From a virus (lineage: Duplodnaviria; Heunggongvirae; Uroviricota; Caudoviricetes): a stretch of DNA of 64,000 nucleotides. Positions 6,097 to 62,794 of this stretch are shown one piece after another. The stretch is from the IMG/VR virus record IMGVR_UViG_2537561875_000003, one strand, 5' to 3'. Under the pieces are notes generated by a model. The model made no database searches and was not told the origin of the DNA. It saw only the letters and a list, made by a program, of their open reading frames with translations. Each line of letters begins with the position of its first letter. The first letter of the stretch is position 1. Both the position numbers and the translations under genes were made by a program.

Positions 6097-6173
6097 TGGT
6101 GCACCATTCAGGACTCGAACCTGAAACCGATAGCTTAGAAGGCTATTGCTCTCTCCGGTTGAGCTAATGGCGC
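6097..6173 (-). tRNA. Phage-encoded tRNA-Arg (anticodon UCU)
   Basis: 77-nt cloverleaf by hand: acceptor GCGCCAT/ATGGTGC, anticodon stem ATAGC/GCTAT, loop CUUCUAA, T-loop GTTCGAGTC, CCA end. Confidence 0.8.
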
Positions 6174-6178
6174 TGAAT

Positions 6179-6256
6179 TGGTGCTCGCATCAGGGTTCGA
6201 ACCTGAAATCATCCGATTATGAGTCGGGTGCTTTAACCTTGTTAAGCTATGCGAAC
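6179..6256 (-). tRNA. Phage-encoded tRNA with CAU anticodon (Met or Ile2)
   Basis: Acceptor GTTCGCA/TGCGAGC, anticodon loop CUCAUAA, GGTTCGAACC T-arm, CCA end. Confidence 0.65.
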
Positions 6257-10597: not shown

Positions 10598-11229
10598 CCT
10601 TCGCAGCTATAATTGCTGCATCCATCAAAGTCGTATGGGTTGTATTGCCAGGTAATGCGGCCACAATGTGGGCAGTTCCAGCGAACCTTTCCACTTTTTG
10701 CCTTCTGTCTGCGATTGTATTTTTTTAGCCATTCAGGCATCACCAGTCCGGCACCTTGAACCATAGTTCGGCGGTTGAAATCATTGATATTGAACGTGCG
10801 GCGCTTTACTGCATCTGCCATATGGAAGGGCAGCCACACAACGCCTGGCTCATCCGTGTTGGCTGATACAAAAACGAATGCCTTGCTGAAATCATCGGTT
10901 GGCAACCCTCCGCTTTGTAACCAGTAAACATCGTTCCCGTTCCAGTCACCTTTTTTATACGCAACGTATGCGCTGCAACCTTGCTCAACCACGCTATCGC
11001 ATGGGATGTACTGGCAATCCACATGCCATACAGCCAGGGCATCAACAGCATCAGCGCAAATCGGCTGGTCAATCTCTCTCCCGTAGTCCCAGCATCTCTG
11101 CGCCTCTTCCTGCGTATAAACGTGCGCGCGGTCGATATTGGAGCTGTATCCGTTTCCGTTATGGCAATGAAACGAGGCGTTGCTCCCCACAGTTTCTCGC
11201 GTGCAAAGCATGTAAAAACGGTTGCTCAT
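10585..11229 (-). CDS. Cys-rich hypothetical protein with a C-terminal zinc ribbon (CPHCG...CEGW)
   Basis: 214 aa ORF overlapping its neighbours by a few codons. Confidence 0.4.
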   Translation of the reverse strand: MSNRFYMLCTRETVGSNASFHCHNGNGYSSNIDRAHVYTQEEAQRCWDYGREIDQPICADAVDALAVWHVDCQYIPCDSVVEQGCSAYVAYKKGDWNGNDVYWLQSGGLPTDDFSKAFVFVSANTDEPGVVWLPFHMADAVKRRTFNINDFNRRTMVQGAGLVMPEWLKKYNRRQKAKSGKVRWNCPHCGRITWQYNPYDFDGCSNYSCEGWRA

Positions 11230-11675
11230 TTGTCGGCCCCCTCGCGCAGCTGCTTGGCCTGCTCATTAGCAACTCGACCTGATTCGCGCCATTGCTCGGC
11301 AATCAAACTATTCGCCTCATCTTTGGCTAATTTGAAAAAAAGGTTAGCCATATCCTCCACCCCATCAGCCTTAATCCCGGCTACGATGCGATCGGTGGCG
11401 GGGGTTTTTTCCGCTGCCAAATTAGCCCGGTGGTCATTCCATCCGCGCGCATATATCGGGTTTATGGACATGCCGTCCTTCACGCAGTACGCCTGACCGC
11501 CACGATTGATAACTTCAATTTCTTCTGCAATGCCAGCCTTCAGCCCCGCATTCTCCGCAGCCAGCTGCTGGTACGCTTTCGCCAGCTTCAGGAACTTCTG
11601 CTCTCTGATCGACGGCTCGCCTGCGCTCTCAAGGGAGGCGATGAGCTCATTTACAGCCTGTAGTGTGATAGTCAT
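11226..11675 (-). CDS. Hypothetical protein
   Basis: 149 aa ORF in the operon. Confidence 0.35.
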   Translation of the reverse strand: MTITLQAVNELIASLESAGEPSIREQKFLKLAKAYQQLAAENAGLKAGIAEEIEVINRGGQAYCVKDGMSINPIYARGWNDHRANLAAEKTPATDRIVAGIKADGVEDMANLFFKLAKDEANSLIAEQWRESGRVANEQAKQLREGADK

Positions 11676-11917
11676 TTGGCGGCTCCTTCTGCGAGCATGG
11701 CGATGATTTCTTCCGGGGTCTCTTTCACGTCAATGCGTTCTCCGGAGGTCATTTTCAGAATCGTCAGACCAGCGAAATACATGCTGGCGATGTGGTCTGC
11801 AGCAACAAACACAGGCTCGTAGACTGTTTCTGGTTCCCAACCGTATGCACCCTGGTGCTGTACCACGATTTTTTGTGTTAATTTCAGAAAAATCATTTTC
11901 TTACTCCCGCCAGGCAC
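11672..11917 (-). CDS. Hypothetical protein
   Basis: 81 aa ORF, coupled. Confidence 0.3.
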   Translation of the reverse strand: MPGGSKKMIFLKLTQKIVVQHQGAYGWEPETVYEPVFVAADHIASMYFAGLTILKMTSGERIDVKETPEEIIAMLAEGAAK

Positions 11918-12195
11918 TGGTTAAACAGTTTGGTCATTGGGTTTACACCGCCAGGACGCTGGCGATACTGAACAGACGGATCGCTGTCGGTTACGGCTGT
12001 TGTGTCAATCAGGGTGTAGCGGTAGCTCCTGCACTCACCCTCACGCTTAACCTGGCCGTCACGGTGCATCTGCCACAGGGAGGAATTGACCACTGAAGAG
12101 TCAAGCCCGGTGCCGCGGCGGATATCCTGAAAGTTGCAGCCAGGATGCTGGCCGATGAAGTTAATAACGGCTTGTTTGCCAGAGTTCTTTTTCAT
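11893..12195 (-). CDS. Hypothetical protein (possible winged-helix)
   Basis: 100 aa ORF. Confidence 0.3.
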   Translation of the reverse strand: MKKNSGKQAVINFIGQHPGCNFQDIRRGTGLDSSVVNSSLWQMHRDGQVKREGECRSYRYTLIDTTAVTDSDPSVQYRQRPGGVNPMTKLFNQCLAGVRK

Positions 12196-12929
12196 GACCG
12201 CCCTCTCCCCAGTCCAAATTTCGCCCGAATTTCTGCGATTTTGTTTAACCCCTGCTCCTGACTTAATGGCCGACCGCCAAGTTTTGGAATCTGCTTAACC
12301 GGCTCTGGAATCGCTTCTCCTGCGTTTAAACGACGCACCATACGCATCAGCTCATCCTGCGCCTTACGACGCAGCTCAGCGTCACTGAGGCCGTTTGCGC
12401 GCATGTCTGCGTACAGGCCAGTAACCATCCAGTAGCAGGCTTTGTGCTTCAGCGTTACCGGTGTGACGTTGTGCTCTGGCCACGGATAGGATTCAGCATC
12501 CGGGTATTGCCCGCGGGTCCTGCAGTACTGGTAAACCATATCGACCAGCTCCACTGCATCCGGCAGTCCGGAAGATACGGCTGATTCCGATTTGCACCAG
12601 GCGACAAACTGACCCGGCGATGGCATGAATGGGCGATCCTGTTTGCGGGCAACGCGCATTCCGGCGTTGATTTGCTCCATGGAGACAATCCCGTTTTCCT
12701 TGAACGCCAGGAGCCACTGCCGGCGCATCTCGTTCATCTCCTCGGGTGTTTTGCTGGCCAGCGCCGGAAACACAGCGAGCAACTGGCGGAACAGTTCGTT
12801 GAAGATCTCCGCAGTCTTTGCCGCCTGGCGCTTTACTGCCTGCTCGTCCTGCATTTCAGGAAGCCCGGCAGCCACGCGCTGGAAATTTTCCCGATCGAAG
12901 TTGTGCATGCTTTCAGCGATTGATTTCAT
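12192..12929 (-). CDS. P: Replication protein P (lambda P-like DnaB-helicase loader)
   Basis: Near-colinear similarity to lambda P that I recognise (FDRE...VAWC..ESYPWP...GEAIPEPVKQLP...AEI.AKFGL). Confidence 0.85.
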   Translation of the reverse strand: MKSIAESMHNFDRENFQRVAAGLPEMQDEQAVKRQAAKTAEIFNELFRQLLAVFPALASKTPEEMNEMRRQWLLAFKENGIVSMEQINAGMRVARKQDRPFMPSPGQFVAWCKSESAVSSGLPDAVELVDMVYQYCRTRGQYPDAESYPWPEHNVTPVTLKHKACYWMVTGLYADMRANGLSDAELRRKAQDELMRMVRRLNAGEAIPEPVKQIPKLGGRPLSQEQGLNKIAEIRAKFGLGRGRS

Positions 12930-13954
12930 TCGAGCACCCCGTAAATCCAGTCAGTGTTGTTCAGGTCGACTTTTGGCTTCCAGGCAACCTGAATCCCTGG
13001 CGCGCTGCGCTGCATGGTCAACTTGTCCCACTGCTTGCGCAGCGCATCAGGGCTCAGGATGTTGCGATGCCAGAACGAGTCTTTGCTGGCCCAGTCGTAC
13101 ATGCCGCAGATATTCTGGTGGCTACGATTGTCGATCTGACGCATCAGTCGAACCGTGTTTGACCAAGCGGTCATGTCAGGGGTTTTGCAGGTTGGGTTGA
13201 TCATCCTGACCCTGGAGAAAATCCACTCGGCAACGCGAACGTCTTCGGCGGTTCCCCACTTGCTGCCGCTGGGTGTGTAAACCGCAGCATCAGGATGAGC
13301 AGACAAAAATTTCTTCAGGCGGGCGTCAGAGGATTCGCCAGAATTCTCGGACGAAGATCTTTTAATGTTTTTATTCTTGTTATTACCTTCTTGTTCATGT
13401 TGTGCGGTTGTTTGTGCGGCTTCATGTGCGCCATCATGTGCGGGTACCACCTTCAAACCCGCGCCATTGCTGGACTCGTCATGTGCGCAAGTATGTGCGG
13501 CTTCATGTGCGGCTTCATGTGCGGGTAAATTGTCTGTTTTTTGAGCATATTCTGCAAAATTTGTGATGGTGATCACTCTCCCTTTTTGCTTCTCGCCTTC
13601 GATAGAAATCATCCCTTCGCGCACAAAAACGGCCAGCATTCTCTCCACTGAATCGCGACTAGTAGGATTCCCTTTCCGGTCGCAAAGCTGCAGCCCTAAA
13701 TCGGCCGCTGTGACCACCAGTTGTCCGGGCAGCAGTGACCACTCATGACCTTTGAAAGTCGCTTTGAATGGCTGACGAGCAGCATTAAGCAGCAGGTTTT
13801 CCCACAGGGTTCTGAGGTACACATCTTTTGCCCAGGACTGCTTGAGAACGCTCCGGTACAACGGGATGTAGCCAGATTTCTGGTTTTCCATCCGGTTGCT
13901 CCTGAATTGCCCCGGCGCGGCGCCGGGAAACTTGAGTATTTCTGCGGTGTTCAT
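12926..13954 (-). CDS. O: Replication initiator O-like
   Basis: Upstream of and coupled to P. Contains the iteron array, translated as AHEAAHEAAHTCAHD... Confidence 0.7.
   Translation of the reverse strand: MNTAEILKFPGAAPGQFRSNRMENQKSGYIPLYRSVLKQSWAKDVYLRTLWENLLLNAARQPFKATFKGHEWSLLPGQLVVTAADLGLQLCDRKGNPTSRDSVERMLAVFVREGMISIEGEKQKGRVITITNFAEYAQKTDNLPAHEAAHEAAHTCAHDESSNGAGLKVVPAHDGAHEAAQTTAQHEQEGNNKNKNIKRSSSENSGESSDARLKKFLSAHPDAAVYTPSGSKWGTAEDVRVAEWIFSRVRMINPTCKTPDMTAWSNTVRLMRQIDNRSHQNICGMYDWASKDSFWHRNILSPDALRKQWDKLTMQRSAPGIQVAWKPKVDLNNTDWIYGVLE
13395..13527. repeat. Origin iterons (about 12-bp period, YTCATGTGCGG-like, roughly 8 copies) inside the O gene, followed by an AT-rich stretch at 13528-13570
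   Basis: Direct repeats visible at 13395-13527: ttgtgcggttgtttgtgcggcttcatgtgcgccatcatgtgcgg...catgtgcgcaagtatgtgcggcttcatgtgcggcttcatgtgcgg. Confidence 0.6.
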
Positions 13955-14748
13955 GCTTCACTCTCCCAGCCGGCCTCTTTCAGGAATTCGCGATAGTTAT
14001 CCAGGATGGCGCGCGCATCAGCTGGCAGTTCAATGTCAGCCTGATCAGCGACTATCTGGAGAAACTGGCGCGCCTTTGCTGCGCTAAACTGCGGCAGCGC
14101 CGCGCTGCGGGTTAATTTCGATTTACCTGACGCTCTGGCCTTATCCATCTGGCGAATGGCTACAGAGGCCGCCTGGGGGCCGTGCTCGCGGGATAGTGCA
14201 ACCGCGGTTGTTGGGGATACCTCGCCGGCACGCACCATGCTGATCAGCTCTTCTCCACAGGTCAGCAAATGCAGGTGATAGTCGACGTCGGACAGAGAAC
14301 GCTTAACCTTCTTCGCGATCTCGTCCGGTTCCCACCCCTGATTTCTCAAACGCTGATATGCAGCTGCGCGTTCCAGAGCAGTGAGAGGCTTGCCCTGGTT
14401 CCGGGTAACCATGAAGGCGATACGATCAGCTTCGTTCCCGACGAAGTCTTTGCACTCAAGCCGGATGATGTCAGCGCCTGCTTTCGTCGCTTCAATGGCG
14501 CCGTAATAGCGGTGGTGGCCGTCGATAACCTTCACGCCCTTCTCGGTAACCTGGACGTCCAGCGGAGGCACCGACTCGCCGGCGATAAACGCATCGCGGA
14601 ACTCAGCGACGTGATCCTGGTCGATTTCGCGGATATTCAGTCCGGGCTCGACGTACAGCTCTGACAAAGGAACGGTGTAAGTTTTGTTAACCACCGTTCC
14701 GGTGCCGTTTTTGTCTTTGTGCTTGTAAAGCTGGTAAAGTGAACTCAT
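13951..14748 (-). CDS. ParB-like nuclease-domain protein
   Basis: N-terminal ParB/Srx motif (IDGHHRY). Confidence 0.55.
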   Translation of the reverse strand: MSSLYQLYKHKDKNGTGTVVNKTYTVPLSELYVEPGLNIREIDQDHVAEFRDAFIAGESVPPLDVQVTEKGVKVIDGHHRYYGAIEATKAGADIIRLECKDFVGNEADRIAFMVTRNQGKPLTALERAAAYQRLRNQGWEPDEIAKKVKRSLSDVDYHLHLLTCGEELISMVRAGEVSPTTAVALSREHGPQAASVAIRQMDKARASGKSKLTRSAALPQFSAAKARQFLQIVADQADIELPADARAILDNYREFLKEAGWESEA

Positions 14749-14834
14749 AATTACTCCTGTGAATTGATCCAGTTAATTCGCGTAGAAAGCCGTTAGTGCT
14801 CGAACACTGCGGCTTTCGCCTTTTCTACCCTTCA

Positions 14835-15155
14835 TTAGTCCCATCCCAACGGTCCTGGTCGGCACCGCTCTGCACGTAATCCGATATCTGCCAGCGTTTC
14901 TACCGACTGCAGGTAATGCCGGGAAACCACTACCGCTTCAGGCGGCACAACCTGCAGACCAAGCACGGACAACTCTTTTGCTATGTCAGCGAAATGCCCT
15001 TCCCCCTTTCTGCGACTGACTGTTGATTCACTGATACCCAATATCTCCGCGTAAGCCTTCTGCCCAATGGATGAAAGGCGGTTGAGTAAAACCCCTTCCA
15101 GCTCAATCGGGTTGAGGATCGGCGGTTCTAAGTTGCGGGCTATTGCGCTTTGCAT
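14835..15155 (-). CDS. CII-like transcriptional activator
   Basis: HTH (QKAYAEILGISESTVSRRK) and position immediately after cro. Confidence 0.45.
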   Translation of the reverse strand: MQSAIARNLEPPILNPIELEGVLLNRLSSIGQKAYAEILGISESTVSRRKGEGHFADIAKELSVLGLQVVPPEAVVVSRHYLQSVETLADIGLRAERCRPGPLGWD

Positions 15156-22893: not shown

Positions 22894-23229
22894 ATGGCGT
22901 CTGACAAACCGATAACAGCACAGCAGGCCGCCGATTTGCTCATCGTGTCGGCGCGGGTGATCTATCGTCTCATTGAATCTGGTGAGCTCGCCGGCCGCAA
23001 GGTCGGCAACAAGTACAGAACGACCGAGGCGGCTTGTATTGCATATTTGAAAACCCCGCGCGATCCTGTCATCGCGAACGCGGGTGAACATAAAGGAGAA
23101 GTTTTATGTCAATCACCCTCAGGGGCGGCGTGTGGCACTGTCATTTCTTTACGCCGTCAGGAAAAAGAGTTAGGCGATCTCTTGGCACGGGGGACAAAAA
23201 GCAGGCTCAGGAGCTCCACGACAAGCTGA
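22894..23229 (+). CDS. xis: Excisionase (Xis-like HTH)
   Basis: N-terminal [32 protein letters not shown] is excisionase-like. The ORF overlaps the int start by about 124 nt. Confidence 0.5.
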
Positions 23230-24269
23230 AGGCGGAAGCGTGGCGGGTTGACCAGATCGGAGACCTTCCCGTCAGAACCTTCGAAGAATGCTGCATCAGG
23301 TGGCTGCGGGAAAAAGACCATAAGCGATCGCTGGATGATGACAAAACCAAAATTGAGTTTTGGCTGCAGCATTTTTCCGGCCGTGATGTCTCGAAGATAA
23401 CGGCGGAGGAAGTTCACGAAGCCGTTAACGGGATGATCAACCGTAAGCACCTGCAGGTATGGGAGAGTAAACGCGATGCCGCGGTGAGGAAGGGTAAGCC
23501 GGTTCCTGAGTACAAACCACGGCAGGTTTCTCAGGCGACGAAGGCGCAGCACCTTTCCTTCATTCGGTCCCTTCTCAGGGCCGCCGCGAATGACTGGGGC
23601 TGGATAAAAACAGCCCCTGTTATCAAAACCCGCAAGCCTATCAGTAAGCGGATACGGTGGCTGACCAGAGAAGAAGCTGAGCGGTTGATCGAGTGCATGC
23701 CGGAGAGCATTAAGCCAGTGGTGATATTTGCACTGGCAACCGGCCTGCGCCGCTCAAACATCATCGGGCTTGAGTGGCAGCAGGTCGATATGCAGAGAAA
23801 GGTTGCATGGGTAAATCCGGAGAACGCAAAAGCGGGCAAGGCGATTGGCGTAGCTCTGAATGATACCGCATGCAGGGTATTAAGGGATCAGATAGGGAAG
23901 CACTCCCGGTGGGTATTCGTTCATACCACGGCAAAACATCGCTCTGACGGAACGCTGACGCCCGCGGTGAGAAAAATGCGGGTGGATGACAATAACGCCT
24001 GGCGCGCCGGGCTGAAAAAAGCGGGGATAGAGGATTTCCGTTTTCACGACCTCCGGCACACCTGGGCGAGCTGGCTGATTCAGTCCGGCGTCCCGCTTTC
24101 TGTTTTGCAGGAAATGGGCGGATGGGAGAGCATCGAGATGGTGCGTCGGTATGCTCACCTGGCGCCGAACCATTTGACCGAACACGCACGGAAAATTGAC
24201 GCCATTTTTGGCGCTAGCGACACAAATACGACACAAGGAGGAAATCAGGCTGGTTTAAAACTGGCGTAA
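23106..24269 (+). CDS. int: Tyrosine integrase, DLP12 IntD-like (argU-specific family)
   Basis: 387 aa, highly similar along its length to IntD as I recall it (...[44 protein letters not shown]). It converges on the tRNA 3'-end copy. Confidence 0.9.
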
Positions 24270-24474: not shown

Positions 24475-25695
24475 ATGGCTAGCACTCTTTTAACAGACAG
24501 CAAAATCAGGGGCCTGAAGCCTAAAAATTCAGCCTATTATACCTGGCAAGCAGCCGCAACCCGCGGCACTGGCAGACTCGGTGTAAAGACTTACCCATCA
24601 GGAAGAAAAACATTCGTCTATCGGTATTTCATCAGCGGAAAAGAGAAGTTTATCGGTCTGGGCGACTTCCCTACCCTTACTCTTTCCGATGCAACCGAGA
24701 AAGCCAGAGCCGCTGCGGCCAGCATATCCGATCCCGCTAAGGCCCAGGTAGAACATGCATCACTTAAAAAGCTGTTTGATGATTATATTGCAGACCAAAA
24801 GGCCAGAGGCAAGCGATCTTACGACAAAACACAAAACCGAATTAATCAGGTTCTGGCAAGCCCGCATATCACCCCAGAGATGCCAGCAAAAGATGTAACC
24901 CCGGACCATATCAAACGCATACTTTCAGAATTTATTGCGAGGGATGCGCGCGCCGGCGCAAACAAAGTACGTTCGAATCTGCATGCCATTTTTAACTTTG
25001 GCCTGTTTGCAGATAACGACCCTGCGAATATCGATAAGAAAACAGTTTATGGTCTGGATCGCAACCCGGTGGCCGCGGTCCCATCGCAGCGCGGAGCAGA
25101 TAAAGCCCTTGACCGATTTTTATCATGGGATGAATTATCTGCGCTGCTGGCAGTCCTTTCCCGCCCAGCAGAAGCAATCCCAATGCATCCCGATTTCGTT
25201 CAGCTGCTGTTGTGTTGTTTACACACAGCAGGGCAGCGCCCGTGGGAGCTAATGACAAACACAAAAGATAACTGGGATAAGAAAGAAAAAACGTTGACGG
25301 TGCCGCCGCACATATCTAAAACGGGTGATTATCATGTCATTCCGTTGAGTGATTCAGCGACGCAGATCCTGCATGTGATGGAAAAACGCTATCCCAAATC
25401 CGATTTTCTTTTCCCCGCGGATACGGCTGAAGGGCATCTTCTTTCAGCTGAGTTCGGGAAGCAGGTAAGAAAATTTTGTGAACGGGAGCCATTTAATAAA
25501 TTCACGCCGAGGGACGTTCGGCGCACATTTAAAACGCTCGCCGGCGCGATGGGTGTAAGCACCGAAATGCGCGACAGATTGCAGAACCATAAAAGAGCCG
25601 GCGTATCAGCCAAGCACTATGACCGATACGACTACATTAAGGAAAAACGCGAAATTATATCGCAATGGGAAGAAAAGTTACTTTCACTCTGTTGA
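24475..25695 (+). CDS. int: Tyrosine integrase, P4-like (DUF4102 arm-binding N-terminus)
   Basis: 406 aa with an N-terminal LTDSKIRGLKPK arm-binding domain and a C-terminal catalytic R...H..R..Y region. Confidence 0.85.
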   Translation: MASTLLTDSKIRGLKPKNSAYYTWQAAATRGTGRLGVKTYPSGRKTFVYRYFISGKEKFIGLGDFPTLTLSDATEKARAAAASISDPAKAQVEHASLKKLFDDYIADQKARGKRSYDKTQNRINQVLASPHITPEMPAKDVTPDHIKRILSEFIARDARAGANKVRSNLHAIFNFGLFADNDPANIDKKTVYGLDRNPVAAVPSQRGADKALDRFLSWDELSALLAVLSRPAEAIPMHPDFVQLLLCCLHTAGQRPWELMTNTKDNWDKKEKTLTVPPHISKTGDYHVIPLSDSATQILHVMEKRYPKSDFLFPADTAEGHLLSAEFGKQVRKFCEREPFNKFTPRDVRRTFKTLAGAMGVSTEMRDRLQNHKRAGVSAKHYDRYDYIKEKREIISQWEEKLLSLC

Positions 25696-25776: not shown

Positions 25777-26100
25777 TCAAATTGGGCATTTATCTTCATC
25801 CTTCCCTATCCGGTTGATAACGAATGTCACTATTCCTAACACTACGACGTCGTCCAATGCCTCGCCTTCCAGCGCCTCACCATCACGAGTAATAAACGCC
25901 TTCCCAAAAACTTTCGCAAAATCTGTACCGCCGGAGTACTGGATCAATACCGTGTCCTGCTGCTTTGGTTTAACGGAGAAATCAACTACGGCATAACCAG
26001 TTTCTGTTTGCACGATCCGAGTATTGGGGCCGGTACCACAGAGTTTATCGACGGTCAGACGCCCTTCTACATAGTCTGCTGCTGGCGATGGAAAGCCCAC
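25777..26100 (-). CDS. Hypothetical protein, second gene of a 2-gene moron operon
   Basis: GTG start with GGAGGG RBS, coupled to the upstream ORF. Confidence 0.35.
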   Translation of the reverse strand: MGFPSPAADYVEGRLTVDKLCGTGPNTRIVQTETGYAVVDFSVKPKQQDTVLIQYSGGTDFAKVFGKAFITRDGEALEGEALDDVVVLGIVTFVINRIGKDEDKCPI

Positions 26101-26102
26101 GA

Positions 26103-26342
26103 TTACAGCCCTCCATTCGGGTTGTAAAGCTGGAAAGTGCGATCGTCACCTTCCTGAGTTGAGACGTCGCGGAATGTTGTCACGTAGTGCTCTATCCACT
26201 GGTTAGCCTGGCGCGGTGACCAGTGCCAGTTATATCTCTCCAGTTCCTGCAGAAATCGCCTGGTGGTGAGGATGCGCTTTCCGTTAGACAGGATATCTAT
26301 TGCGTTCCGGCACGCCGTCTCGATTTCGTATAAACGCGGCAT
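26103..26342 (-). CDS. Hypothetical protein, first gene of a 2-gene moron operon
   Basis: Start at the internal Met with a GGGGGAAG RBS. Confidence 0.35.
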   Translation of the reverse strand: MPRLYEIETACRNAIDILSNGKRILTTRRFLQELERYNWHWSPRQANQWIEHYVTTFRDVSTQEGDDRTFQLYNPNGGL

Positions 26343-26636
26343 ACTTCCCCCTATCAAACATACTGTATATAAATACAGTAAATGCATGTGTGCAGCAGAT
26401 CAATATTGGCAGTGGCTATCAATGATCGGCGCTGACGTAACGCATTGATGCCTCAATTCGACTGGCAACATTGAGCAGGGAAATATTTATAAATCGTCTT
26501 CACCCCCCCTCATATTACATCGGCTACCGACCCAATGTTTTAACTGCTCAGACCAGAAATATCTGGAAGCTTTAGGCATCTTCTTGGAAGATAGATGAGC
26601 GCAAAGACGCACACAGCAATAATTTATTCATCGCTT

Positions 26637-26669
26637 TCCCCCCGGCGTCCCTCCGGGGGGATTTTTTCT
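26637..26669 (+). terminator. Intrinsic terminator on the plus strand (ccccccggcgtccctccgggggg plus T-run)
   Basis: Perfect 8-bp GC stem followed by TTTTTTCT. No plus-strand ORF upstream. Confidence 0.45.
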
Positions 26670-26704: not shown

Positions 26705-27505
26705 TTAACCTAAATCGGTGATTCCCCATGCTGCACTGAGGTAGGCACTTACACTATCGAGGACTGATGCAACCTGAGCCTGAGTCAGCGCTGTTTCGAA
26801 AATAAGCTCCATCCCCATCGTTATGGCTGCGCCTGCAGGGTATGCAGCTGGCGCATGGTGTGAACCGATCCGGATCGTGCGGTCGGTATAAGCGGTTCGG
26901 TTGACCAGCGCTTTCGAGTTCTGCCAGTTAAGCGGCCCTCCCTGCCGGGCAGCAATCCTGGCGATCCCATTATCACCATCAACCAGCTCCACAAAAGCGG
27001 CCCACTTCGTTGTGTCGTATGCCGCGCTGTAGTAGTTGATCATGTTCGTTGGCGTTACGTTGTTGTCCTCTACAAAGGCCCCGTAAAGACTTTGCCCGGA
27101 AAACAGAAAAGCGAGTCCGTCGCCGCGATACACCGCCGGTGAGCCGGAATAGCTGTAGTTACCCATCATGAAGGCCTGCTGGGTTTCGGTAGCTGCCGTT
27201 GGTTTTACCGGCTTACAGATCACGATATGGGTCTGGTTTTTGGTAGAAACTTTTCCGGTATCAAAACAGTTACCGAAACTACAGACCGCCCCGAAATCAG
27301 CCTGGATCGATGGCGAACCGACTTTGGTCAGTGGAGCATTGTTGTCGGCACGGTTTCTCATGCTCAGCTCTAAGGTTCCGCCGTGGATGTACATCGCTTT
27401 CAACCCTGCGATAACAGGTAAATCCGGCTGCATGAAATGCCCTTTTTTCGGATGAGTTCCCGGAATAACGACGTCACCGAGTTTTGGGATATAGATATTG
27501 TTCAT
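26705..27505 (-). CDS. Tail-fibre-associated protein (distal receptor-binding or fibre-assembly candidate)
   Basis: 266 aa, immediately downstream of the tail fibre gene. Confidence 0.35.
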   Translation of the reverse strand: MNNIYIPKLGDVVIPGTHPKKGHFMQPDLPVIAGLKAMYIHGGTLELSMRNRADNNAPLTKVGSPSIQADFGAVCSFGNCFDTGKVSTKNQTHIVICKPVKPTAATETQQAFMMGNYSYSGSPAVYRGDGLAFLFSGQSLYGAFVEDNNVTPTNMINYYSAAYDTTKWAAFVELVDGDNGIARIAARQGGPLNWQNSKALVNRTAYTDRTIRIGSHHAPAAYPAGAAITMGMELIFETALTQAQVASVLDSVSAYLSAAWGITDLG

Positions 27506-27511
27506 AAGAAA

Positions 27512-29458
27512 TTAACCTTTAATCAGTGCATTGTAGAGTGACGTTGCGACCAGATTGCTGCCCGTAGCATTCGGGTGCAGGTTATCGAGAAAGCAGCCGA
27601 GGCTGTTCATTTCAGCCCAGGAGTCGAAAAGGTCATAGATGCTGAAAAACTCGACATTCAGCGTCTGTGACAGGTCGTACATGACGTCACGGAAATCAAC
27701 GATGGGCGTTATCGCTGTTCCGTTCGTGCGGGGTGGTGCCATCAGAATAAATCCCACGTCAGGGAGCACAGCACGACAGGCGGCCATGTACGTTTGCAGA
27801 GCAGTACGGAATGTGGCTGTCGATTCAGAAATCCTGTAATCGTTATTCCCGATGACAATCGCAATCACGTCAGGCTGCATTGTGCTCAGGTACTCCGCGA
27901 TTTTGTCGGAGAACAGCAGGAACTGATCGGCAAGAATCCCGGAATTCCCCGCCTTGCTCATCACACACCCCGCCACGCCACTGCGCCACAGATAAAACCC
28001 GTGGATAGCGACACGCCCCGTGTTGCCATCGGTTTTGATGTATATGGTTCTGACCTCGTCAGCCATGCCTGTCAGCAACACCGATTTTGTCGTGCCGGTA
28101 TTCCCGCAGACAACCTCTGTCCACTGAGTGATCCCGCCAGCGTCGTAGCCGTACTGGAAACGCCCGTTCAAATCCTGGTAGTAAATACGGCAGTCCGTGC
28201 AGCGGACATTCGTCACCCTGAAATAGTCGGTCGCCATGGTCGTATTGACTGACTGACCATCAATTCCGCAGCCGTACAGCGGCGCACCACTTGTCGGCGA
28301 TGAGTCATACAGATTCCACCCTGCAGAGCGGTTGATATTCGAGCCATCGCGTGCCGCTCCGTAGTTAACCGTGCGCCAGCCAAGACCGGCATCACCATAA
28401 TCATCATGCAGCAGCCCGGCGATAGCGGTCGCCAGTTCGTTATTCTGCGTCCAGCTGTCGCCCGTCAGCATGAAGTGTGGCCGGGTTGCAAGGCCAGCTT
28501 TGAGCTGCGCTTTCTTTGCTTTCCAGCGCCACAGGGTTCGCCCGTCGGTATGCAGAGGAATGTTATAAGCGGCGGTGTACATACGCCGCTGATACCATCT
28601 TGCGAAAATTCCCCTGATGTTTGGTCCGATACCCGTCGCATCAAGCTCGCCATCCTGGAACCAGAACGGGACATTTCCGGCGGCATCCATCATCCCTGGT
28701 ACAAAACCAGGGGAAACCAGAGGGACATTCTGGTTAAGCGCGCTGGCGATGATACCGTTGATATAAGCCCATATTTTTTCCAGCAGCCCCGTCGCAATTG
28801 CCGACGCATCCAGCCCACCATTCCAGTACACCGGTACATTGCCGGCGCTGTCCATGAATAACGGGAAAAACAGAGGGGAAACCCCCGTTACCTGCACATT
28901 CAACGCATCCCCCAGCCGCGCATGAACATCCTCATAGATCATCTGATACAACGATGTGGCAATCCGGGAAACCGCAAAACCGTTATCCCAGTACACAGGC
29001 ACGTTCCCGGCCCCATCGACAAAGAAAGGGAAGAAGTCACCACTGACAGCCCCGCTGGCAATAAACTCATCGATAAACTGGATAACTGCGTCGACAGAAC
29101 TCTGTGATGGCATCCTGCGCCCGGTTGCCGTCAGCGTCCCGGCGACATTTCGGTATTCGATCGCCAGAGCGGAATCATCCGGACTGCGTACGTAGGTGGT
29201 GGCACCTACTGGAATACTGGCAATATCAGCCTGAGCCTCTTCCACACTCTGGTATTGCTTGCCAAGTGGGATCAGGTTCTGGCGCGTTTCATCCACAAGT
29301 GCGGCGTTGTCTTCCTGCATTTTCCGCCAGGAGTCCAGCGGTTCACCGGCGCGATCGGGAACAGTAGCCGCAGGCCCGTTCGCCAGCTCATCGATTCGCT
29401 TTGCATTATCGAGCAGCACCTCCGGAGAAGTGCTCCCCAACGGCGGATTAAAGGCCAT
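27512..29458 (-). CDS. Tail fibre with a C-terminal SGNH/GDSL esterase domain
   Basis: Conserved fibre N-terminus (MAFNPPLGSTSPEVLLDNAKRIDELANG), three internal approx. 40-aa repeats (FFPFFVDGAGNVPVYW...), and SGNH blocks (LTGDSWTQN; GNNDY; DNLHPN). Confidence 0.7.
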   Translation of the reverse strand: MAFNPPLGSTSPEVLLDNAKRIDELANGPAATVPDRAGEPLDSWRKMQEDNAALVDETRQNLIPLGKQYQSVEEAQADIASIPVGATTYVRSPDDSALAIEYRNVAGTLTATGRRMPSQSSVDAVIQFIDEFIASGAVSGDFFPFFVDGAGNVPVYWDNGFAVSRIATSLYQMIYEDVHARLGDALNVQVTGVSPLFFPLFMDSAGNVPVYWNGGLDASAIATGLLEKIWAYINGIIASALNQNVPLVSPGFVPGMMDAAGNVPFWFQDGELDATGIGPNIRGIFARWYQRRMYTAAYNIPLHTDGRTLWRWKAKKAQLKAGLATRPHFMLTGDSWTQNNELATAIAGLLHDDYGDAGLGWRTVNYGAARDGSNINRSAGWNLYDSSPTSGAPLYGCGIDGQSVNTTMATDYFRVTNVRCTDCRIYYQDLNGRFQYGYDAGGITQWTEVVCGNTGTTKSVLLTGMADEVRTIYIKTDGNTGRVAIHGFYLWRSGVAGCVMSKAGNSGILADQFLLFSDKIAEYLSTMQPDVIAIVIGNNDYRISESTATFRTALQTYMAACRAVLPDVGFILMAPPRTNGTAITPIVDFRDVMYDLSQTLNVEFFSIYDLFDSWAEMNSLGCFLDNLHPNATGSNLVATSLYNALIKG

Positions 29459-29534
29459 AGTTTTTGCTCCAAAAAAGAGGTTTCGCCCAAACGAGGGTTT
29501 GAGCGAAAAGAGTTAATTAGGGGAATTTGTGGTT

Positions 29535-32500
29535 TTAGGCGACGTCGCCGGGGTATGTGGCGTCGTCGTACTGGTAGAAAATTTCTTTATATTCAGGTGC
29601 AGTAATCTGACAGTTGCTGTCACCCGATGGGGCAACCTCCTGGACTATCCCATGCCGCGCACCCTTTTCACTGTCGCAGAACAATAACTTCGGCAGATCA
29701 ATATCTGGGTCGTCCATAATCCAGTCGCCGGGATACAGGTCGTCGTTGTACGGCACCGTCAGCGTGAAATCATCTACCCGTTGCGGCGTTAGCATTCGCG
29801 ATGATGGTCGACCGTCCTGAAACTGTATCCAGCAGCGAGGATTCGCGTAGCTCCAGTCCAGTGGCTCCGTGACGTGCAGCGTGATTTCCTGGAAGTCGTA
29901 AATCATCGCGTCAATCAGGCAACTTTGGGTTTTCCCGGTTGGAATATCGTCGGACAAAATGATGTGATCACCGAAGTCATGACACCATCCCAGCATCGAC
30001 GTCGTAGCCGTATAGGTTCGGCGTTGGTGGAGATATTTCATTAACCGACGCATCCCGATACGCCAGGCGCGATCTGCAGTCATGGCAACATCAATGGTGT
30101 ATGCCTCCGTTTTGCGCGGAAAAGGATTTTCCGGCGTCCGGCACTGTACGGTTTCCTCCGCCCAGGTCACAGGGTTGATATATTTCACATCCACGCCATC
30201 AAAATCATCCTCCGACGGGACCCTGAATGACGTCTGCATTTCCTCGACGGTATCCTGAGGAGTAATGATCCCTGTCCAGCTTTTGACGCCCTCTCTCCCG
30301 ACAGAAAGCAACCCGTCAGACAGCAGAAAATACCCCATGCCAGCCTCGGCTATTTTGTCGAAAATATCCTTTGCTGACGTGCTGTCACTGCTTGCCTGGT
30401 GATCAAAATATTCGCCCCTTGGCGTCCAGTAGGTAGCCTCCAGCGTACTGAGCGCCGCAATGTCGATCTGGTCGTCGCGATATCCCAGACTGCGGGCAAG
30501 ATGCAGGAACGCACCGCTGATTGTCCTGTCACCACCGCCATCATAATTTCGTGTGGCGACAACACTCACACGCTTGTCTGACTGGGCCGCCAGCTGGCCG
30601 CCGGTTTCAACCGTGATCCCTATTGTTGATATCCCTGCGTAGGAGGTCGGACGGGAAAGCAAACGACCTCTGAGCGCCTGCCAGAACATGCTGTCTCTCG
30701 CGTTGTTGCTCCCCTGCTCGTTACGGCGGCGGCATCGAACCTCCACCAGCCCGGGAGAGGACAGATCAAAACGCTCTGTAAACCCGAGACCATTAATGTT
30801 TTTAAGCGCGTAAACCCCTGGCTTACTCGTCCACCCTGATCCGGAACCATAAACGCGATACTGGATTTCATACTCGACATGGCGGACCCGCTTATTCCCG
30901 TTGTTCTGGAACCCGCAAATTCCGTTTGGGAAAGCAAAGTTGACCTCGAAGGCGTCCACAACTTCATTTTGCGGGCAGGCCAGAAAGGGGCCGAGCCAGG
31001 TTTCATTATCGTTAATACCAGACGCGGCAAAATCCACGACGGTACGGGTCATAAAGCCTGACCAGGTGCTGTCAACGACACCGTTAACCACACGCTGTAC
31101 GGTCGCAGAGGGACCATCAGTAGACGCTATCTGGTATTCGTTGCCACGGTGCGCCAGGGAAATCCGCTGAGTGCCTTCCGGCAATCCGGAAAAGGCAGTG
31201 CCAGAATCGTATGCCAGCGTCACGCTGGCTGTTACCGCAGGGATTCCGCCGCTGGAGGCTGTACCAGCTGTAAATACCGGGCTGTCGCCAAATACTGACG
31301 CAGGCAGGAATGATGACGTAATGGAGCCGCCACGCCAGGGGCTGGAGATCTCGACGATACGTATCACGCCGCCATCATCCTGAGCAATGAGCCCAGAACC
31401 ATTCAACCCGCCGTTAATCGCTGCGAGCAAGCCAGACATTGTGCCGTAGTTGGCGACCAGAGATATGGTATAGGTGATACCCTGCCAGGTCAGAGCAAAG
31501 GTCTGGCTGGTTGTCGTAAAGTCATACGTTGACGGCGAGGCACTGGCGCGTAATACCGCAGTCGCTCCCCCTGTTCCCGGAACGGCGTCCTGGTGAGGGG
31601 TATACGTGGCGATCTGCAGGTCATAGTCAGTACCGTTAAACGTTAGGGTGACAGGCATTCCGCTGAATGGCGCAATCTCTGACACGACGTCGCCTGTCAG
31701 CACGTTAAAACCGCCCTCGATGGATACCTGATAATTCACTGGCGCTTTCAGGGTGACAATTGCACCGGCGATCCAGCCAGGAGGAAGTTTGTTCTCATCC
31801 TCGTCTTCATCATTATCATCATCGACATCGAGGCCAGAAAACGAGACAGAGGCACCGCTGACGCTCATGGCATCAGCAACGATATCACTGGCTTCAGGGG
31901 CAGTCTGAGCCATATCGAGGCCGCTGCCGCTCGAAGTTCCACCAACTTCCGTTGAGTTGAACCATATCTCACTGCGACGATCCCCGGCCACATTATCGCC
32001 GGGCCCATAGCTGGTATATGAAAAGCCCTCGCCTAAGGTCAACGCCGGAGTTTCCCCTACCCGAAAATCTCCACCGGTATAGGAGAAACGTCCATATCCA
32101 AGGCAGACAAACATTTCTACCGTCATTCTGGTGGGATCAGCGGGGTCGAATCGCGTTACCGGCTGCACCAGGTAATCCGGGTAAATCCGGTTTCGCCCAA
32201 ACGCCTCCCTAACGGGATCACCGAGTTTTGCGGTGTTTGCCCGCGCCGGGTTCAGATCCAGCGATGAAGCGTTACTGGATGAAAAACCGCCCAGCTCTGG
32301 TTTTGGGGCAAAGAATAATGCATAGGCCGTAGACGCAATGGATACGGCCACCGAAACCCACGCGGCAATTTCAAGACCCGTGCCATACGGAATGGGATAT
32401 ATCCGCACGTCACTGTCTGGCCGCAACAAACATAACGGCCATTCCGCCGGGGGGACTGCCTGGCCGTTCAGCTCGATCACGACAGGATGAGTTTTATCCT

Positions 32501-32612
32501 GTGAATAGCTCGGGACATTTCTGCTCATCCACTCATGCAGCGTCAGCACACCATGCTCGTGCGTTTCAAGGGGTTCACCCGGTAGCCGGGACGGGTAAAA
32601 CTTTATCGTCAT
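29535..32612 (-). CDS. Host-specificity protein J-like with an N-terminal gpI-like region (I-J fusion)
   Basis: 1025 aa after the K-like gene. The N-terminal approx. 100 aa resemble lambda tail-assembly protein I (hydrophobic anchor AAWVSVAVSIASTAYALF). Confidence 0.75.
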   Translation of the reverse strand: MTIKFYPSRLPGEPLETHEHGVLTLHEWMSRNVPSYSQDKTHPVVIELNGQAVPPAEWPLCLLRPDSDVRIYPIPYGTGLEIAAWVSVAVSIASTAYALFFAPKPELGGFSSSNASSLDLNPARANTAKLGDPVREAFGRNRIYPDYLVQPVTRFDPADPTRMTVEMFVCLGYGRFSYTGGDFRVGETPALTLGEGFSYTSYGPGDNVAGDRRSEIWFNSTEVGGTSSGSGLDMAQTAPEASDIVADAMSVSGASVSFSGLDVDDDNDEDEDENKLPPGWIAGAIVTLKAPVNYQVSIEGGFNVLTGDVVSEIAPFSGMPVTLTFNGTDYDLQIATYTPHQDAVPGTGGATAVLRASASPSTYDFTTTSQTFALTWQGITYTISLVANYGTMSGLLAAINGGLNGSGLIAQDDGGVIRIVEISSPWRGGSITSSFLPASVFGDSPVFTAGTASSGGIPAVTASVTLAYDSGTAFSGLPEGTQRISLAHRGNEYQIASTDGPSATVQRVVNGVVDSTWSGFMTRTVVDFAASGINDNETWLGPFLACPQNEVVDAFEVNFAFPNGICGFQNNGNKRVRHVEYEIQYRVYGSGSGWTSKPGVYALKNINGLGFTERFDLSSPGLVEVRCRRRNEQGSNNARDSMFWQALRGRLLSRPTSYAGISTIGITVETGGQLAAQSDKRVSVVATRNYDGGGDRTISGAFLHLARSLGYRDDQIDIAALSTLEATYWTPRGEYFDHQASSDSTSAKDIFDKIAEAGMGYFLLSDGLLSVGREGVKSWTGIITPQDTVEEMQTSFRVPSEDDFDGVDVKYINPVTWAEETVQCRTPENPFPRKTEAYTIDVAMTADRAWRIGMRRLMKYLHQRRTYTATTSMLGWCHDFGDHIILSDDIPTGKTQSCLIDAMIYDFQEITLHVTEPLDWSYANPRCWIQFQDGRPSSRMLTPQRVDDFTLTVPYNDDLYPGDWIMDDPDIDLPKLLFCDSEKGARHGIVQEVAPSGDSNCQITAPEYKEIFYQYDDATYPGDVA

Positions 32613-62713: not shown

Positions 62714-62763
62714 TTAATGGTACGCCCTACAGGGTTCGAACCTGTGACCTACGGCTTAGAAGG
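62714..62763. repeat. att core copy (attR-like) inside the 3' end of the intact tRNA-Arg
   Basis: Identical to 24281-24330. Confidence 0.85.
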
Positions 62764-62794
62764 CCGTTGCTCTATCCAGCTGAGCTAAGGGCGC
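62718..62794 (-). tRNA. argU: tRNA-Arg (anticodon UCU), argU-like chromosomal integration target
   Basis: 77-nt cloverleaf: GCGCCCT acceptor, D-loop AGCTGGATAGAGC, anticodon stem-loop ACGGC-CUUCUAA-GCCGU, T-arm ACAGGTTCGAACCCTGT, ACCA end. Close to E. coli argU. Confidence 0.9.

What the first reader, a model, noticed from the sequence alone, without database searches (positions are those of the whole stretch)
27512..29458. Tail fibre with three tandem approx. 40-aa internal repeats and a C-terminal SGNH esterase; putative receptor-modifying (deacetylating) enzyme
After a conserved anchor N-terminus come three repeats (FFPFFVDGAGNVPVYWDNGF... / LFFPLFMDSAGNVPVYWNGGL... / GFVPGMMDAAGNVPFWFQDGEL...). 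The C-terminus carries SGNH blocks I, III and V (GDSWT, GNNDY, DxxH). Phage SGNH fibres typically deacetylate O-antigen or capsule sugars as the receptor-recognition step. The downstream 266-aa ORF (26705-27505) may be a second receptor-binding module or a chaperone. The pair probably defines host range or serotype specificity and could modify the lysogen surface.
Basis: partly seen in the sequence, partly recalled or inferred. Interest (0 to 1): 0.55.

Follow-up and report, generated by a model that had tools for sequence, protein, structure and literature searches.

The report
Phage esterase tail fibre plus partner
This is the side tail fibre of a Klebsiella prophage, ending in a sugar-deacetylating (SGNH) esterase, a kind of phage receptor-binding protein already described in 2025-2026; it is always encoded together with a small lectin-like partner protein that has not been studied.

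Summary
ORF 27512-29458 (-) encodes a 648-aa fibre directly after the TipJ gene of a complete-looking lambdoid Klebsiella prophage. It has four parts:
- a swappable N-terminal anchor (aa 1-135);
- three tandem repeats of 55 aa, not about 40;
- an SGNH esterase (aa ~325-648);
- a ~140-aa carbohydrate-binding-type beta-sandwich inserted in the esterase between blocks I and II.

In a 139-sequence family alignment the only invariant columns are S335, G504, N539 and H628. The model's best structural matches are the peptidoglycan O-acetylesterases Ape1, covering both domains.

The interpretation as a virion-borne, receptor-modifying O-acetylesterase is well supported by homology. Activity and substrate are untested, and modification of the lysogen surface is not supported.

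The kind is known. The exact protein is in NCBI as "SGNH/GDSL hydrolase family protein". SGNH fibres were reported in 2026 as the commonest enzymatic domain of Klebsiella prophage receptor-binding proteins, with two shown to be esterases.

The addition here concerns the 266-aa downstream ORF. It is a ConA/LamG-like jelly-roll protein that follows this fibre type in 76 of 76 informative viral loci. It co-diverges with the esterase and moves with it as a 3-kb cassette between siphovirus-type, myovirus-type and lytic T1-like phages, and between Klebsiella and E. coli.

The parts
27512..29458 (-). Tail fibre / receptor-binding protein gene, 648 aa (stop codon included)
   Evidence: ORF list. phrog_14987 matches the full length, and N-terminal hits are to tail fibre PHROGs. 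The exact protein is in NCBI as SGNH/GDSL hydrolase family protein [K. pneumoniae].
29054..29458 (-). N-terminal anchor (aa 1-135), the conserved adaptor that docks the fibre on the tail tip; recombination breakpoint at its end
   Evidence: 52-66% identical to fibres with unrelated C-termini. 65% identical to 164_08-KL2 over aa 3-135 only. Identity to prophage L004 (93%) stops at window 29091. No relative among solved structures by sequence.
28874..29038 (-). Stalk repeat 1 (aa 141-195): beta-hairpin plus helix unit
28709..28873 (-). Stalk repeat 2 (aa 196-250)
   Evidence: 49% identical to repeat 1, z = 26. Repeat HMM E = 2e-27.
28544..28708 (-). Stalk repeat 3 (aa 251-305), divergent; the unit that adjoins the esterase
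   Evidence: z = 6-9 against shuffles. Repeat HMM E = 4e-20.
28385..28486 (-). SGNH esterase, first segment (aa 325-358) with block I GDSWT; nucleophile Ser335 at 28454-28456
   Evidence: S335 is invariant in 139 sequences. It aligns with the GDS motif of Ape1 4k3u. pLDDT above 90.
27971..28384 (-). Inserted beta-sandwich (aa ~359-496), carbohydrate-binding-module-like
   Evidence: All-beta segment in the model, mostly pLDDT above 90. The Ape1 matches (TM-score normalised to the target, TMt, 0.72-0.78) cover both domains, and separate hits are to CBM32, CBM61, CBM6 and CBM4. W381, D385, D400, G401, G432 and N479 are at least 90% conserved.
27515..27970 (-). SGNH esterase, second segment (aa 497-648): block II G504 (27947-27949), block III N539 (27842-27844), block V D625 (27584-27586) and H628 (27575-27577)
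   Evidence: Pfam PF13472 40.2 bits (cut-off 32.9) and PF00657 32.4 bits (cut-off 23.6). G504, N539 and H628 are invariant and D625 is at least 90% conserved. Aligned to the corresponding motifs of Ape1. Coordinates checked.
26705..27505 (-). Companion gene, 266 aa: ConA/LamG-like jelly-roll protein, starting 6 nt after the fibre stop codon
   Evidence: phrog_4390, unknown function. No Pfam or NCBIfam family. AF2 pTM 0.80, with Foldseek hits to ConA-like lectin domains. Found downstream of this fibre type in 76 of 76 informative loci; 74 are homologous. Divergence tracks that of the esterase.
29481..29508 (-). 12-bp hairpin followed by a T-run between the TipJ stop and the fibre ribosome-binding site; lies near the left edge of the exchangeable cassette
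   Evidence: Terminator-like site. Free energy -17.9 kcal/mol, z = -3.8. Nearly identical in prophages with other fibres. The 94% block shared with E. coli runs 29570-26555.
29535..32612 (-). TipJ-family tail tip / central fibre gene (context; the fibre is expected to attach near its product)
   Evidence: PF24801 and PF13550. NF040662 TipJ-related, 465 bits. 96% identical to many Klebsiella prophages.

Best explanation
The gene encodes the side tail fibre (receptor-binding protein) of a lambdoid Klebsiella siphovirus prophage.

Proposed parts and roles:
- aa 1-135 dock the fibre on the tail tip.
- Three 55-aa hairpin-plus-helix repeats form a stalk. That the stalk is trimeric is inferred.
- The distal head is an Ape1-type SGNH O-acetylesterase. 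A carbohydrate-binding beta-sandwich is inserted between catalytic blocks I and II.

Proposed mechanism:
1. The head binds an O-acetylated surface polysaccharide of the host. Capsule is most likely; O-antigen or another shared glycan is possible.
2. Ser335, activated by His628 and Asp625, with the oxyanion hole formed by Gly504 and Asn539, removes the acetyl ester.
3. This gives reversible binding that destroys its own receptor, letting the virion work down to the cell surface. There TipJ makes the irreversible contact.

The 266-aa ConA-like protein made from the next cistron is an obligate partner of this head. It is either a lectin subunit that stays on the fibre or a dedicated assembly factor.

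Shown here: gene position, domain architecture, conservation of the catalytic residues, fold similarity, and linkage and co-divergence of the partner.

Inferred: trimeric state, enzyme activity, acetyl specificity, identity of the glycan, and the role of the partner.
For: Context:
- The prophage looks complete, with terminase, portal, capsid, tape measure and Q-like genes.
- The fibre gene directly follows TipJ.
- The tail genes are 93-96% identical to those of K. pneumoniae prophages.

Enzyme:
- S335, G504, N539 and H628 are the only invariant columns in 139 sequences, and D625 is at least 90% conserved.
- The model has pLDDT above 90 over most of aa 300-648.
- The best PDB matches are the peptidoglycan O-acetylesterases Ape1 (8gkd, 4k3u): E = 1e-21, TMt 0.72-0.78 over about 370 columns, covering the insertion as well.
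- The family profile hits 4k3u at E = 8e-16 with the GDS, G, N and DxxH motifs aligned.

Family size: 190 clusters (50% identity) at E < 1e-30 carry the whole module. In the 150 listed it lies at the C-terminus of proteins that are mostly 500-1600 aa long.

Literature:
- SGNH fibres are the most prevalent enzymatic domain in Klebsiella prophage receptor-binding proteins, and two are active pNP-acetate esterases (PMC13123978).
- G7C gp63.1 deacetylates O-antigen as the adsorption step (cited in the same paper).
- Ape1-like similarity was noted for other K. pneumoniae prophage spikes (PMC12115436).

Partner.
Against: - No assay exists for this subfamily. The two tested Klebsiella fibres are not shown to carry this esterase subfamily. 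164_08-KL2 shares only the anchor with this protein and has a GQS-type motif in place of GDS. The C-terminus of 174_38-KL55 was cut off in the held supplement and could not be compared.
- Ape1, the closest solved relative, acts on peptidoglycan, not on capsule.
- The same fibre at over 90% identity occurs in K. pneumoniae, K. variicola, K. quasipneumoniae, K. michiganensis, K. grimontii and E. coli. This argues against a narrowly serotype-specific receptor.
- The stalk has low model confidence (pLDDT 46-77) in the monomer prediction.
Confidence: 0.8

Rival explanations
1. The 266-aa partner is only an assembly chaperone for the fibre, like lambda Tfa, P2 G or T4 gp38, and is not part of the receptor-binding apparatus.
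For: It lies immediately downstream and appears translationally coupled, the classical place for fibre assembly proteins. It is strictly co-inherited and co-diverges with the fibre head. Its first 23 residues are modelled as disordered yet include conserved positions, as expected for a docking peptide.
Against: The fold is a ConA/LamG-type lectin jelly roll. Matches include toxin receptor-binding domains, the trans-sialidase lectin domain and a cyanophage tailspike chain, and a relative gives a weak Laminin_G_3 hit. From my own knowledge, this differs from known Tfa-type chaperones. The same Ape1-like head in Staphylococcus phage Sebago has no such gene after it, so the esterase fold does not in general need it. 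The partner diverges faster than the esterase (30% against 44%, and 26% against 35%), as receptor-contacting proteins often do.
Confidence: 0.4
2. The SGNH head is a lipase or acyl-esterase acting on a non-carbohydrate ester (lipid A, lipoprotein or outer-membrane lipid) to help penetration, rather than a polysaccharide deacetylase.
For: Pfam names the matching models GDSL-like lipase/acylhydrolase. One PHROG hit is annotated lipase. SGNH enzymes are chemically versatile.
Against: The best structural and profile matches are glycan O-acetylesterases and carbohydrate esterases (Ape1, CE2, acetyl xylan esterases). The inserted domain resembles carbohydrate-binding modules. A position at the distal end of a side fibre fits a surface glycan.
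Confidence: 0.07
3. The head has lost catalysis in practice and serves only as a binding domain.
For: No assay has been done. Some phage enzymatic receptor-binding proteins are binding-only.
Against: All four signature residues are invariant and the Asp is at least 90% conserved across 139 diverged sequences. This indicates selection for catalysis.
Confidence: 0.05
4. It is a peptidoglycan O-acetylesterase like Ape1, used for cell-wall penetration, or a lysogenic-conversion enzyme that modifies the lysogen surface.
For: Ape1 is the closest solved structure.
Against: There is no signal-peptide-like segment: the highest 12-aa hydropathy in the first 50 aa is 0.39. The module sits at the tip of a side fibre, not on the tape measure or tail-tip lysin. 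It is a late-operon structural gene. From my own knowledge, Klebsiella and E. coli are not known to O-acetylate peptidoglycan.
Confidence: 0.03

Closest known systems
Ape1 peptidoglycan O-acetylesterase (N. meningitidis 4K3U/4K7J; C. jejuni 8GKD)
   Same: SGNH catalytic domain with a beta-sandwich inserted between block I and block II. Foldseek E = 1e-21, TMt 0.72-0.78 across both domains. Family profile E = 8e-16 with the GDS, G, N and DxxH motifs aligned.
   Different: Only 12-16% identity. From my own knowledge, Ape1 is a periplasmic bacterial enzyme acting on O-acetyl-MurNAc. The window protein is the C-terminal head of a phage fibre, without a signal peptide, and presumably acts on capsule or O-antigen.
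Klebsiella prophage SGNH-domain tail fibres (Otwinowska et al., PLoS Biol 2026, PMC13123978), e.g. 164_08-KL2 and 174_38-KL55
   Same: Same biological kind: a prophage receptor-binding protein with an SGNH head, proposed to deacetylate capsule. The anchor (aa 3-135) is 65% identical to 164_08-KL2.
   Different: No similarity to 164_08 beyond the anchor. That protein has a GQS-type motif in place of GDS in a different esterase region. The C-terminus of 174_38 was truncated in the held supplement and could not be compared. Neither paper mentions the ConA-like partner.
E. coli phage G7C tailspike gp63.1 (SGNH O-antigen deacetylase)
   Same: Working model: a virion-borne SGNH esterase that removes an O-acetyl group from the receptor polysaccharide as the adsorption step (as cited in PMC13123978).
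   Different: Not detected by sequence or profile search of the PDB, and not among the 50 best Foldseek matches. It is a podovirus spike with a different SGNH subfamily and anchor.
Klebsiella phage Sin4 (Webervirus) gp48 tail fibre plus gp47
   Same: Same two-gene module in a lytic T1-like phage. The fibre is 28% identical over aa 74-647 and is the best BFVD match, E = 6e-53. It is followed 2 nt later by a 249-aa homologue of the partner.
   Different: Different anchor (T1 gp26-like), a lytic phage, and a locus separate from the J gene. gp47 is annotated as hypothetical.
Haemagglutinin-esterases of influenza C virus and coronaviruses (analogy recalled from memory, not tested here)
   Same: A receptor-destroying serine esterase with a lectin domain inserted into the esterase, used for reversible attachment to O-acetylated glycans.
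   Different: No homology was tested or claimed. These proteins were not among the 50 best Foldseek matches.

Membership tests
SGNH/GDSL hydrolase superfamily | Block I GDS(x) with the nucleophile Ser | tested here: met
   G333-D334-S335. S335 is invariant in 139 sequences and aligned to the GDS motif of Ape1.
SGNH/GDSL hydrolase superfamily | Block II Gly and block III Asn (oxyanion hole) | tested here: met
   G504 and N539 are invariant. They align with the corresponding motifs of Ape1 (MGINGAQ and GTNEA).
SGNH/GDSL hydrolase superfamily | Block V DxxH (catalytic Asp and His) | tested here: met
   D625 is at least 90% conserved and H628 is invariant.
SGNH/GDSL hydrolase superfamily | Scores above the curated Pfam thresholds and has the alpha/beta/alpha fold | tested here: met
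   PF13472 40.2 bits against a cut-off of 32.9; PF00657 32.4 against 23.6. AF2 pLDDT above 90, with matches to many SGNH structures.
SGNH/GDSL hydrolase superfamily | Catalytic triad geometry and esterase activity | not testable with these tools
Ape1-type O-acetylesterases (SGNH with inserted CBM-like domain) | Beta-sandwich inserted between blocks I and II, with similarity across both domains | tested here: met
   Insertion at aa ~359-496. TMt 0.72-0.78 over about 370 columns. Profile E = 8e-16 in two stretches flanking the insertion.
Ape1-type O-acetylesterases (SGNH with inserted CBM-like domain) | Exported periplasmic enzyme acting on O-acetylated peptidoglycan | tested here: not met
   No signal-peptide-like segment. 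The module is fused to a phage fibre anchor and stalk. The substrate was not tested. It is therefore filed as an Ape1-like fold, not as an Ape1 orthologue.
G7C gp63.1-like esterase tailspikes | Detectable homology to gp63.1 | tested here: not met
   Absent from PDB sequence and profile hits and from the 50 best Foldseek matches. The resemblance is functional only.
Klebsiella prophage SGNH tail fibres (PMC13123978) | Prophage-encoded receptor-binding protein in the tail module carrying an SGNH domain | tested here: met
Klebsiella prophage SGNH tail fibres (PMC13123978) | Association with a particular K-locus; pNP-acetate esterase activity | not testable with these tools
   The K-type of the carrier genomes is unknown here. 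The held supplements contain no matching sequence.
ConA-like lectin / LamG jelly-roll (partner protein) | Jelly-roll fold similar to ConA-like lectin domains | tested here: inconclusive
   AF2 pTM 0.80, pLDDT 76. Foldseek probability 1.0 but E only about 1e-6 to 1e-5 and TM 0.42-0.56 to ConA-like domains. A positional equivalent (L059) hits Laminin_G_3 at E = 6e-4, below the cut-off. There is no Pfam hit for the window protein and no PDB sequence hit.
Tail fibre assembly proteins (Tfa-type chaperones) | Homology to known Tfa families | tested here: not met
   No Pfam, NCBIfam or functionally annotated PHROG hit. Only the gene position fits.

The most novel reading that the evidence does not exclude
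The fibre and its ConA-like partner form a two-component 'lectin plus receptor-destroying esterase' receptor-binding unit. In this reading the fast-evolving partner stays on the fibre head and supplies glycan specificity, while the Ape1-like esterase provides release. The 3-kb cassette (hairpin, fibre, partner) would then be the unit of host-range exchange across siphovirus-type, myovirus-type and T1-like phages, and across Klebsiella and E. coli.
Probability: 0.3. Interest if true: 0.55.

Novelty: new member of a known kind. Interest (0 to 1): 0.3.

Why it matters
SGNH fibres are now thought to be the commonest enzymatic receptor-binding proteins of temperate Klebsiella phages. Their substrates are unknown, and K-locus typing does not capture acetylation.

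This locus is a clean example of one large subfamily, the Ape1-like type, with 190 clusters at E < 1e-30. It shows that this subfamily never travels alone in enterobacterial phages: a lectin-fold partner gene is always attached. Host-range prediction, fibre swapping and recombinant expression of these fibres should therefore probably treat the two genes as one unit.

Otherwise the finding is ordinary. The protein is already in the databases and is named correctly.

Tried and rejected
- Self-BLAST of the fibre returned only the identity hit. The repeats were instead shown by in-register comparison and shuffling.
- PDB sequence searches found nothing credible for the anchor, the repeat stalk or the partner profile.
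- NCBIfam has no model for the fibre or the partner. Pfam has none for the partner.
- The supplements of PMC13123978 contain no sequence matching this subfamily, and the tested proteins are truncated there. Relatedness of the heads to 174_38-KL55 could therefore not be checked.
- A genome-contig scan with the partner alignment returned only one locus. A viral-contig scan with the 139-sequence alignment failed for lack of a conserved stretch and was repeated with 12 sequences.
- Rejected: modification of the lysogen surface and export (no signal peptide).
- Rejected: membership of the G7C gp63.1 family.
- Rejected: recent duplication, slippage or a variable cassette as the origin of the repeats, since DNA identity between them is only 37-53%.
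Full report
**1. What is at the coordinates**

ORF 27512..29458 on the minus strand encodes 648 aa. It starts at an ATG with GGAG 9 nt upstream. It lies 76 nt downstream of a 1025-aa TipJ-family tail tip gene at 29535-32612 (PF24801 and PF13550; NF040662 at 465 bits).

Upstream on the same strand are a tape measure, major capsid, portal, large terminase, a Q-like antiterminator, primase and helicase. The gene therefore sits at the distal end of the late operon of a complete-looking lambdoid siphovirus prophage.

The TipJ region is 96-97% identical to many K. pneumoniae prophages. The flanking folD is only 84% identical to E. coli. The exact fibre protein is on record from K. pneumoniae. The host is therefore Klebsiella or a close relative.

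**2. Check of the observation**

(a) The three tandem repeats are real, but the unit is 55 aa: aa 141-195, 196-250 and 251-305.
- Repeats 1 and 2 are 49% identical (z = 26 against shuffles).
- Repeat 3 is 20-27% identical to the others (z = 6-9).
- At DNA level they are only 37-53% identical, so the duplication is old.
- In the AF2 model each unit is a beta-hairpin followed by a ~20-residue helix, with modest confidence (pLDDT 46-77), as expected for a monomer model of an oligomeric stalk.
- An HMM of the unit finds 1-4 copies in 93 of 150 family representatives, directly N-terminal of the esterase in the examples inspected. The repeat is thus a family feature whose copy number varies. For example, the 586-aa sister fibres have two units.

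(b) The SGNH domain is split.
- Block I (GDSWT, Ser335) is separated from block II (Gly504), block III (GNND, Asn539) and block V (Asp625-x-x-His628) by an all-beta insertion at aa ~359-496.
- This explains why the Pfam GDSL models match only aa 511-638.

**3. Evidence for catalytic competence**

A search of 1.84 billion cluster representatives with aa 300-648 gave 190 clusters at E < 1e-30. In the 150 listed, the whole ~345-aa module matches at the C-terminal end of proteins that are mostly 500-1600 aa long.

In an alignment of 139 members, 24-89% identical to the window protein, the only invariant columns are S335, G504, N539 and H628. These are the four residues that name the SGNH family. 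D625, G333, D334 and D540 are conserved in at least 90% of sequences.

The AF2 model has pLDDT above 90 over most of aa 300-648.

**4. Fold and closest relatives**

Foldseek against the PDB puts the peptidoglycan O-acetylesterases Ape1 first, from C. jejuni (8gkd, 8gld) and N. meningitidis (4k3u). E-values are 1e-21 to 2e-20 and TMt is 0.72-0.78 over about 370 columns, so the esterase and the inserted sandwich are both covered. These are followed by CE2 and other carbohydrate acetylesterases. Separately, CBM32, CBM61, CBM6 and CBM4 modules match the insertion.

The family profile hits 4k3u at E = 8e-16 in two stretches, with the GDS, G, N and DxxH motifs aligned.

G7C gp63.1 was not found by sequence or profile search and is not among the 50 best structural matches.

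Among viral models the best matches are the tail fibre of lytic Klebsiella phage Sin4, a protein of Proteus phage Mydo and actinophage minor tail proteins. Staphylococcus phage fibres also carry the module.

**5. Modularity**

The first 135 aa are 52-66% identical to Klebsiella and E. coli phage fibres whose remainder is unrelated. They are 65% identical to the first 132 aa of 164_08-KL2, one of the two prophage fibres shown experimentally to be pNP-acetate esterases, with nothing in common after that.

Against prophage L004, which carries a 586-aa fibre, DNA identity is 93% from the tape measure gene through TipJ. It stops at window 29091, about aa 122 of the fibre.

Against E. coli WP2-S18-ESBL-08 the pattern is the opposite. 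TipJ is only about 66% identical, but window 29570-26555 is 94% identical. That block comprises the last 36 nt of TipJ, the intergenic hairpin, the fibre, the partner gene and the downstream GC-rich hairpin.

In an E. coli myovirus-type prophage with a Baseplate_J gene, the same repeats and head (77% identical) sit behind a different N-terminus.

The unit of exchange is therefore either the head-plus-partner or the whole 3-kb cassette.

**6. The downstream ORF**

ORF 26705-27505 (266 aa) starts 6 nt after the fibre stop codon. It has no Pfam or NCBIfam family and belongs to phrog_4390, of unknown function.

*Linkage.* 78 IMG/VR loci encode this fibre type at 26-96% identity. In every one of the 76 with enough downstream sequence, an ORF of 236-269 aa begins within about 20 nt of the fibre stop (one is cut off by the contig end).
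- 68 are recognised by an HMM of the partner.
- 74 are recognised after iteration.
- One of the two remaining gives a weak Laminin_G_3 (ConA-like) Pfam hit.

The set includes Sin4 gp48 and gp47.

*Co-divergence.* The partner's divergence tracks that of the esterase (r = 0.99 overall; r = 0.80 among pairs below 50% identity), and it diverges faster.

*Fold.* The AF2 model (pTM 0.80) is a jelly roll with a C-terminal helix. It matches ConA-like lectin domains: the clostridial neurotoxin receptor-binding region, the trans-sialidase lectin domain, GH54, the collagen IX NC4 domain and a cyanophage Pan3 tailspike chain. Scores are moderate (E about 1e-6 to 1e-5, TM 0.42-0.56).

*Exception.* Staphylococcus phage Sebago has the Ape1-like head but no such gene after it.

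I conclude that the partner is an obligate, lineage-specific companion of the enterobacterial branch. Whether it is a retained lectin subunit or an assembly factor cannot be decided here.

**7. Mechanism**

The most likely mechanism (confidence about 0.8) has three steps.
1. The anchor fixes the fibre on the tail tip and the repeats form the stalk.
2. The distal head binds an O-acetylated surface polysaccharide through the inserted sandwich, and perhaps through the partner.
3. Ser335, with His628 and Asp625, cleaves the acetyl ester. This gives reversible attachment that destroys its own receptor, ahead of irreversible binding by TipJ.

This follows the precedent of G7C gp63.1 and the 2026 proposal for temperate Klebsiella phages (PMC13123978; bioRxiv 10.64898/2026.05.12.724579).

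The substrate is not known. The over-90% cluster spans five Klebsiella species and E. coli. This fits the published remark that SGNH receptor-binding proteins are less K-locus-specific than depolymerases, and it leaves O-antigen or a shared glycan open.

Modification of the lysogen surface is not supported. There is no signal-peptide-like segment and the gene is a late structural gene.

**8. Novelty**

The exact protein is public and annotated as an SGNH/GDSL hydrolase. The kind has been described (PMC13123978), and Ape1-like similarity of K. pneumoniae prophage spikes has been noted (PMC12115436). This is a new member of a known kind.

What I did not find in those papers is the invariant ConA-like partner and the cassette behaviour (and no relevant hits). 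That is a modest but testable addition.

Noticed in passing
window 29481-29508 (-): A 12-bp hairpin followed by CCUCUUUUUU sits between the TipJ stop codon and the fibre ribosome-binding site (free energy -17.9 kcal/mol, z = -3.8). It is nearly identical in prophages that carry a different fibre, and it lies near the left edge of the 94%-identical cassette shared with an E. coli prophage whose TipJ is only 66% identical. It could be an attenuator that sets the fibre-to-TipJ ratio, or a homology anchor for cassette exchange.
   Followed up: partly
L007 (E. coli WP2-S18-ESBL-08) 11031-15026; window 26453-26524: In the E. coli prophage the fibre and partner pair is followed by a convergent 1113-aa gene. 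Its 5' end repeats the hairpin and anchor in inverted orientation (67% identity). A serine recombinase gene comes next, which suggests an invertible or second-fibre region. The window retains only a match to the last ~70 nt of that recombinase gene plus the next small ORF (91% identity).
   Followed up: partly
window 23106-24269 (+) and 24475-25695 (+); 1-23000; 6097-6256; 62718-62794: Two tyrosine integrase genes lie back to back. The left part of the window looks like a second, adjacent phage-derived region, with a terminase-sized ORF at 1082-2758 and tRNA-Arg(tct) plus tRNA-Met at 6097-6256. Another tRNA-Arg(tct) lies next to folD at the right end, probably the attachment site. Together these suggest tandem prophages.
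   Followed up: no
window 25777-26387 (-): Between the partner gene and the integrase lie a short UmuD-like ORF (107 aa, phrog_3469) and a 94-aa ORF of unknown function (phrog_3893). These look like moron-type cargo at the prophage end.
   Followed up: no
window 26637-26661: A GC-rich 9-bp hairpin (8 G-C pairs) lies just downstream of the partner gene, with the T-run on the plus strand. It falls inside the 94% block shared with the E. coli prophage, near that block's right edge.
   Followed up: no
L005 9297-10784 and L006 10620-11761: Sister Klebsiella prophages with the 586-aa SGNH fibre carry a 495-aa reverse transcriptase (RVT_1) gene and a DUF6236 gene a few kb downstream of the fibre and partner pair. 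Neither is present in the window.
   Followed up: no
partial sequence of 164_08-KL2 (PMC13123978 supplement): The experimentally active 164_08-KL2 fibre also has a duplicated short motif after the shared anchor (DVSGFVFRDSVGFV and DISGFVFRDSVGFV). This suggests that hairpin-type stalk repeats are common in these fibres even when the esterase differs.
   Followed up: no
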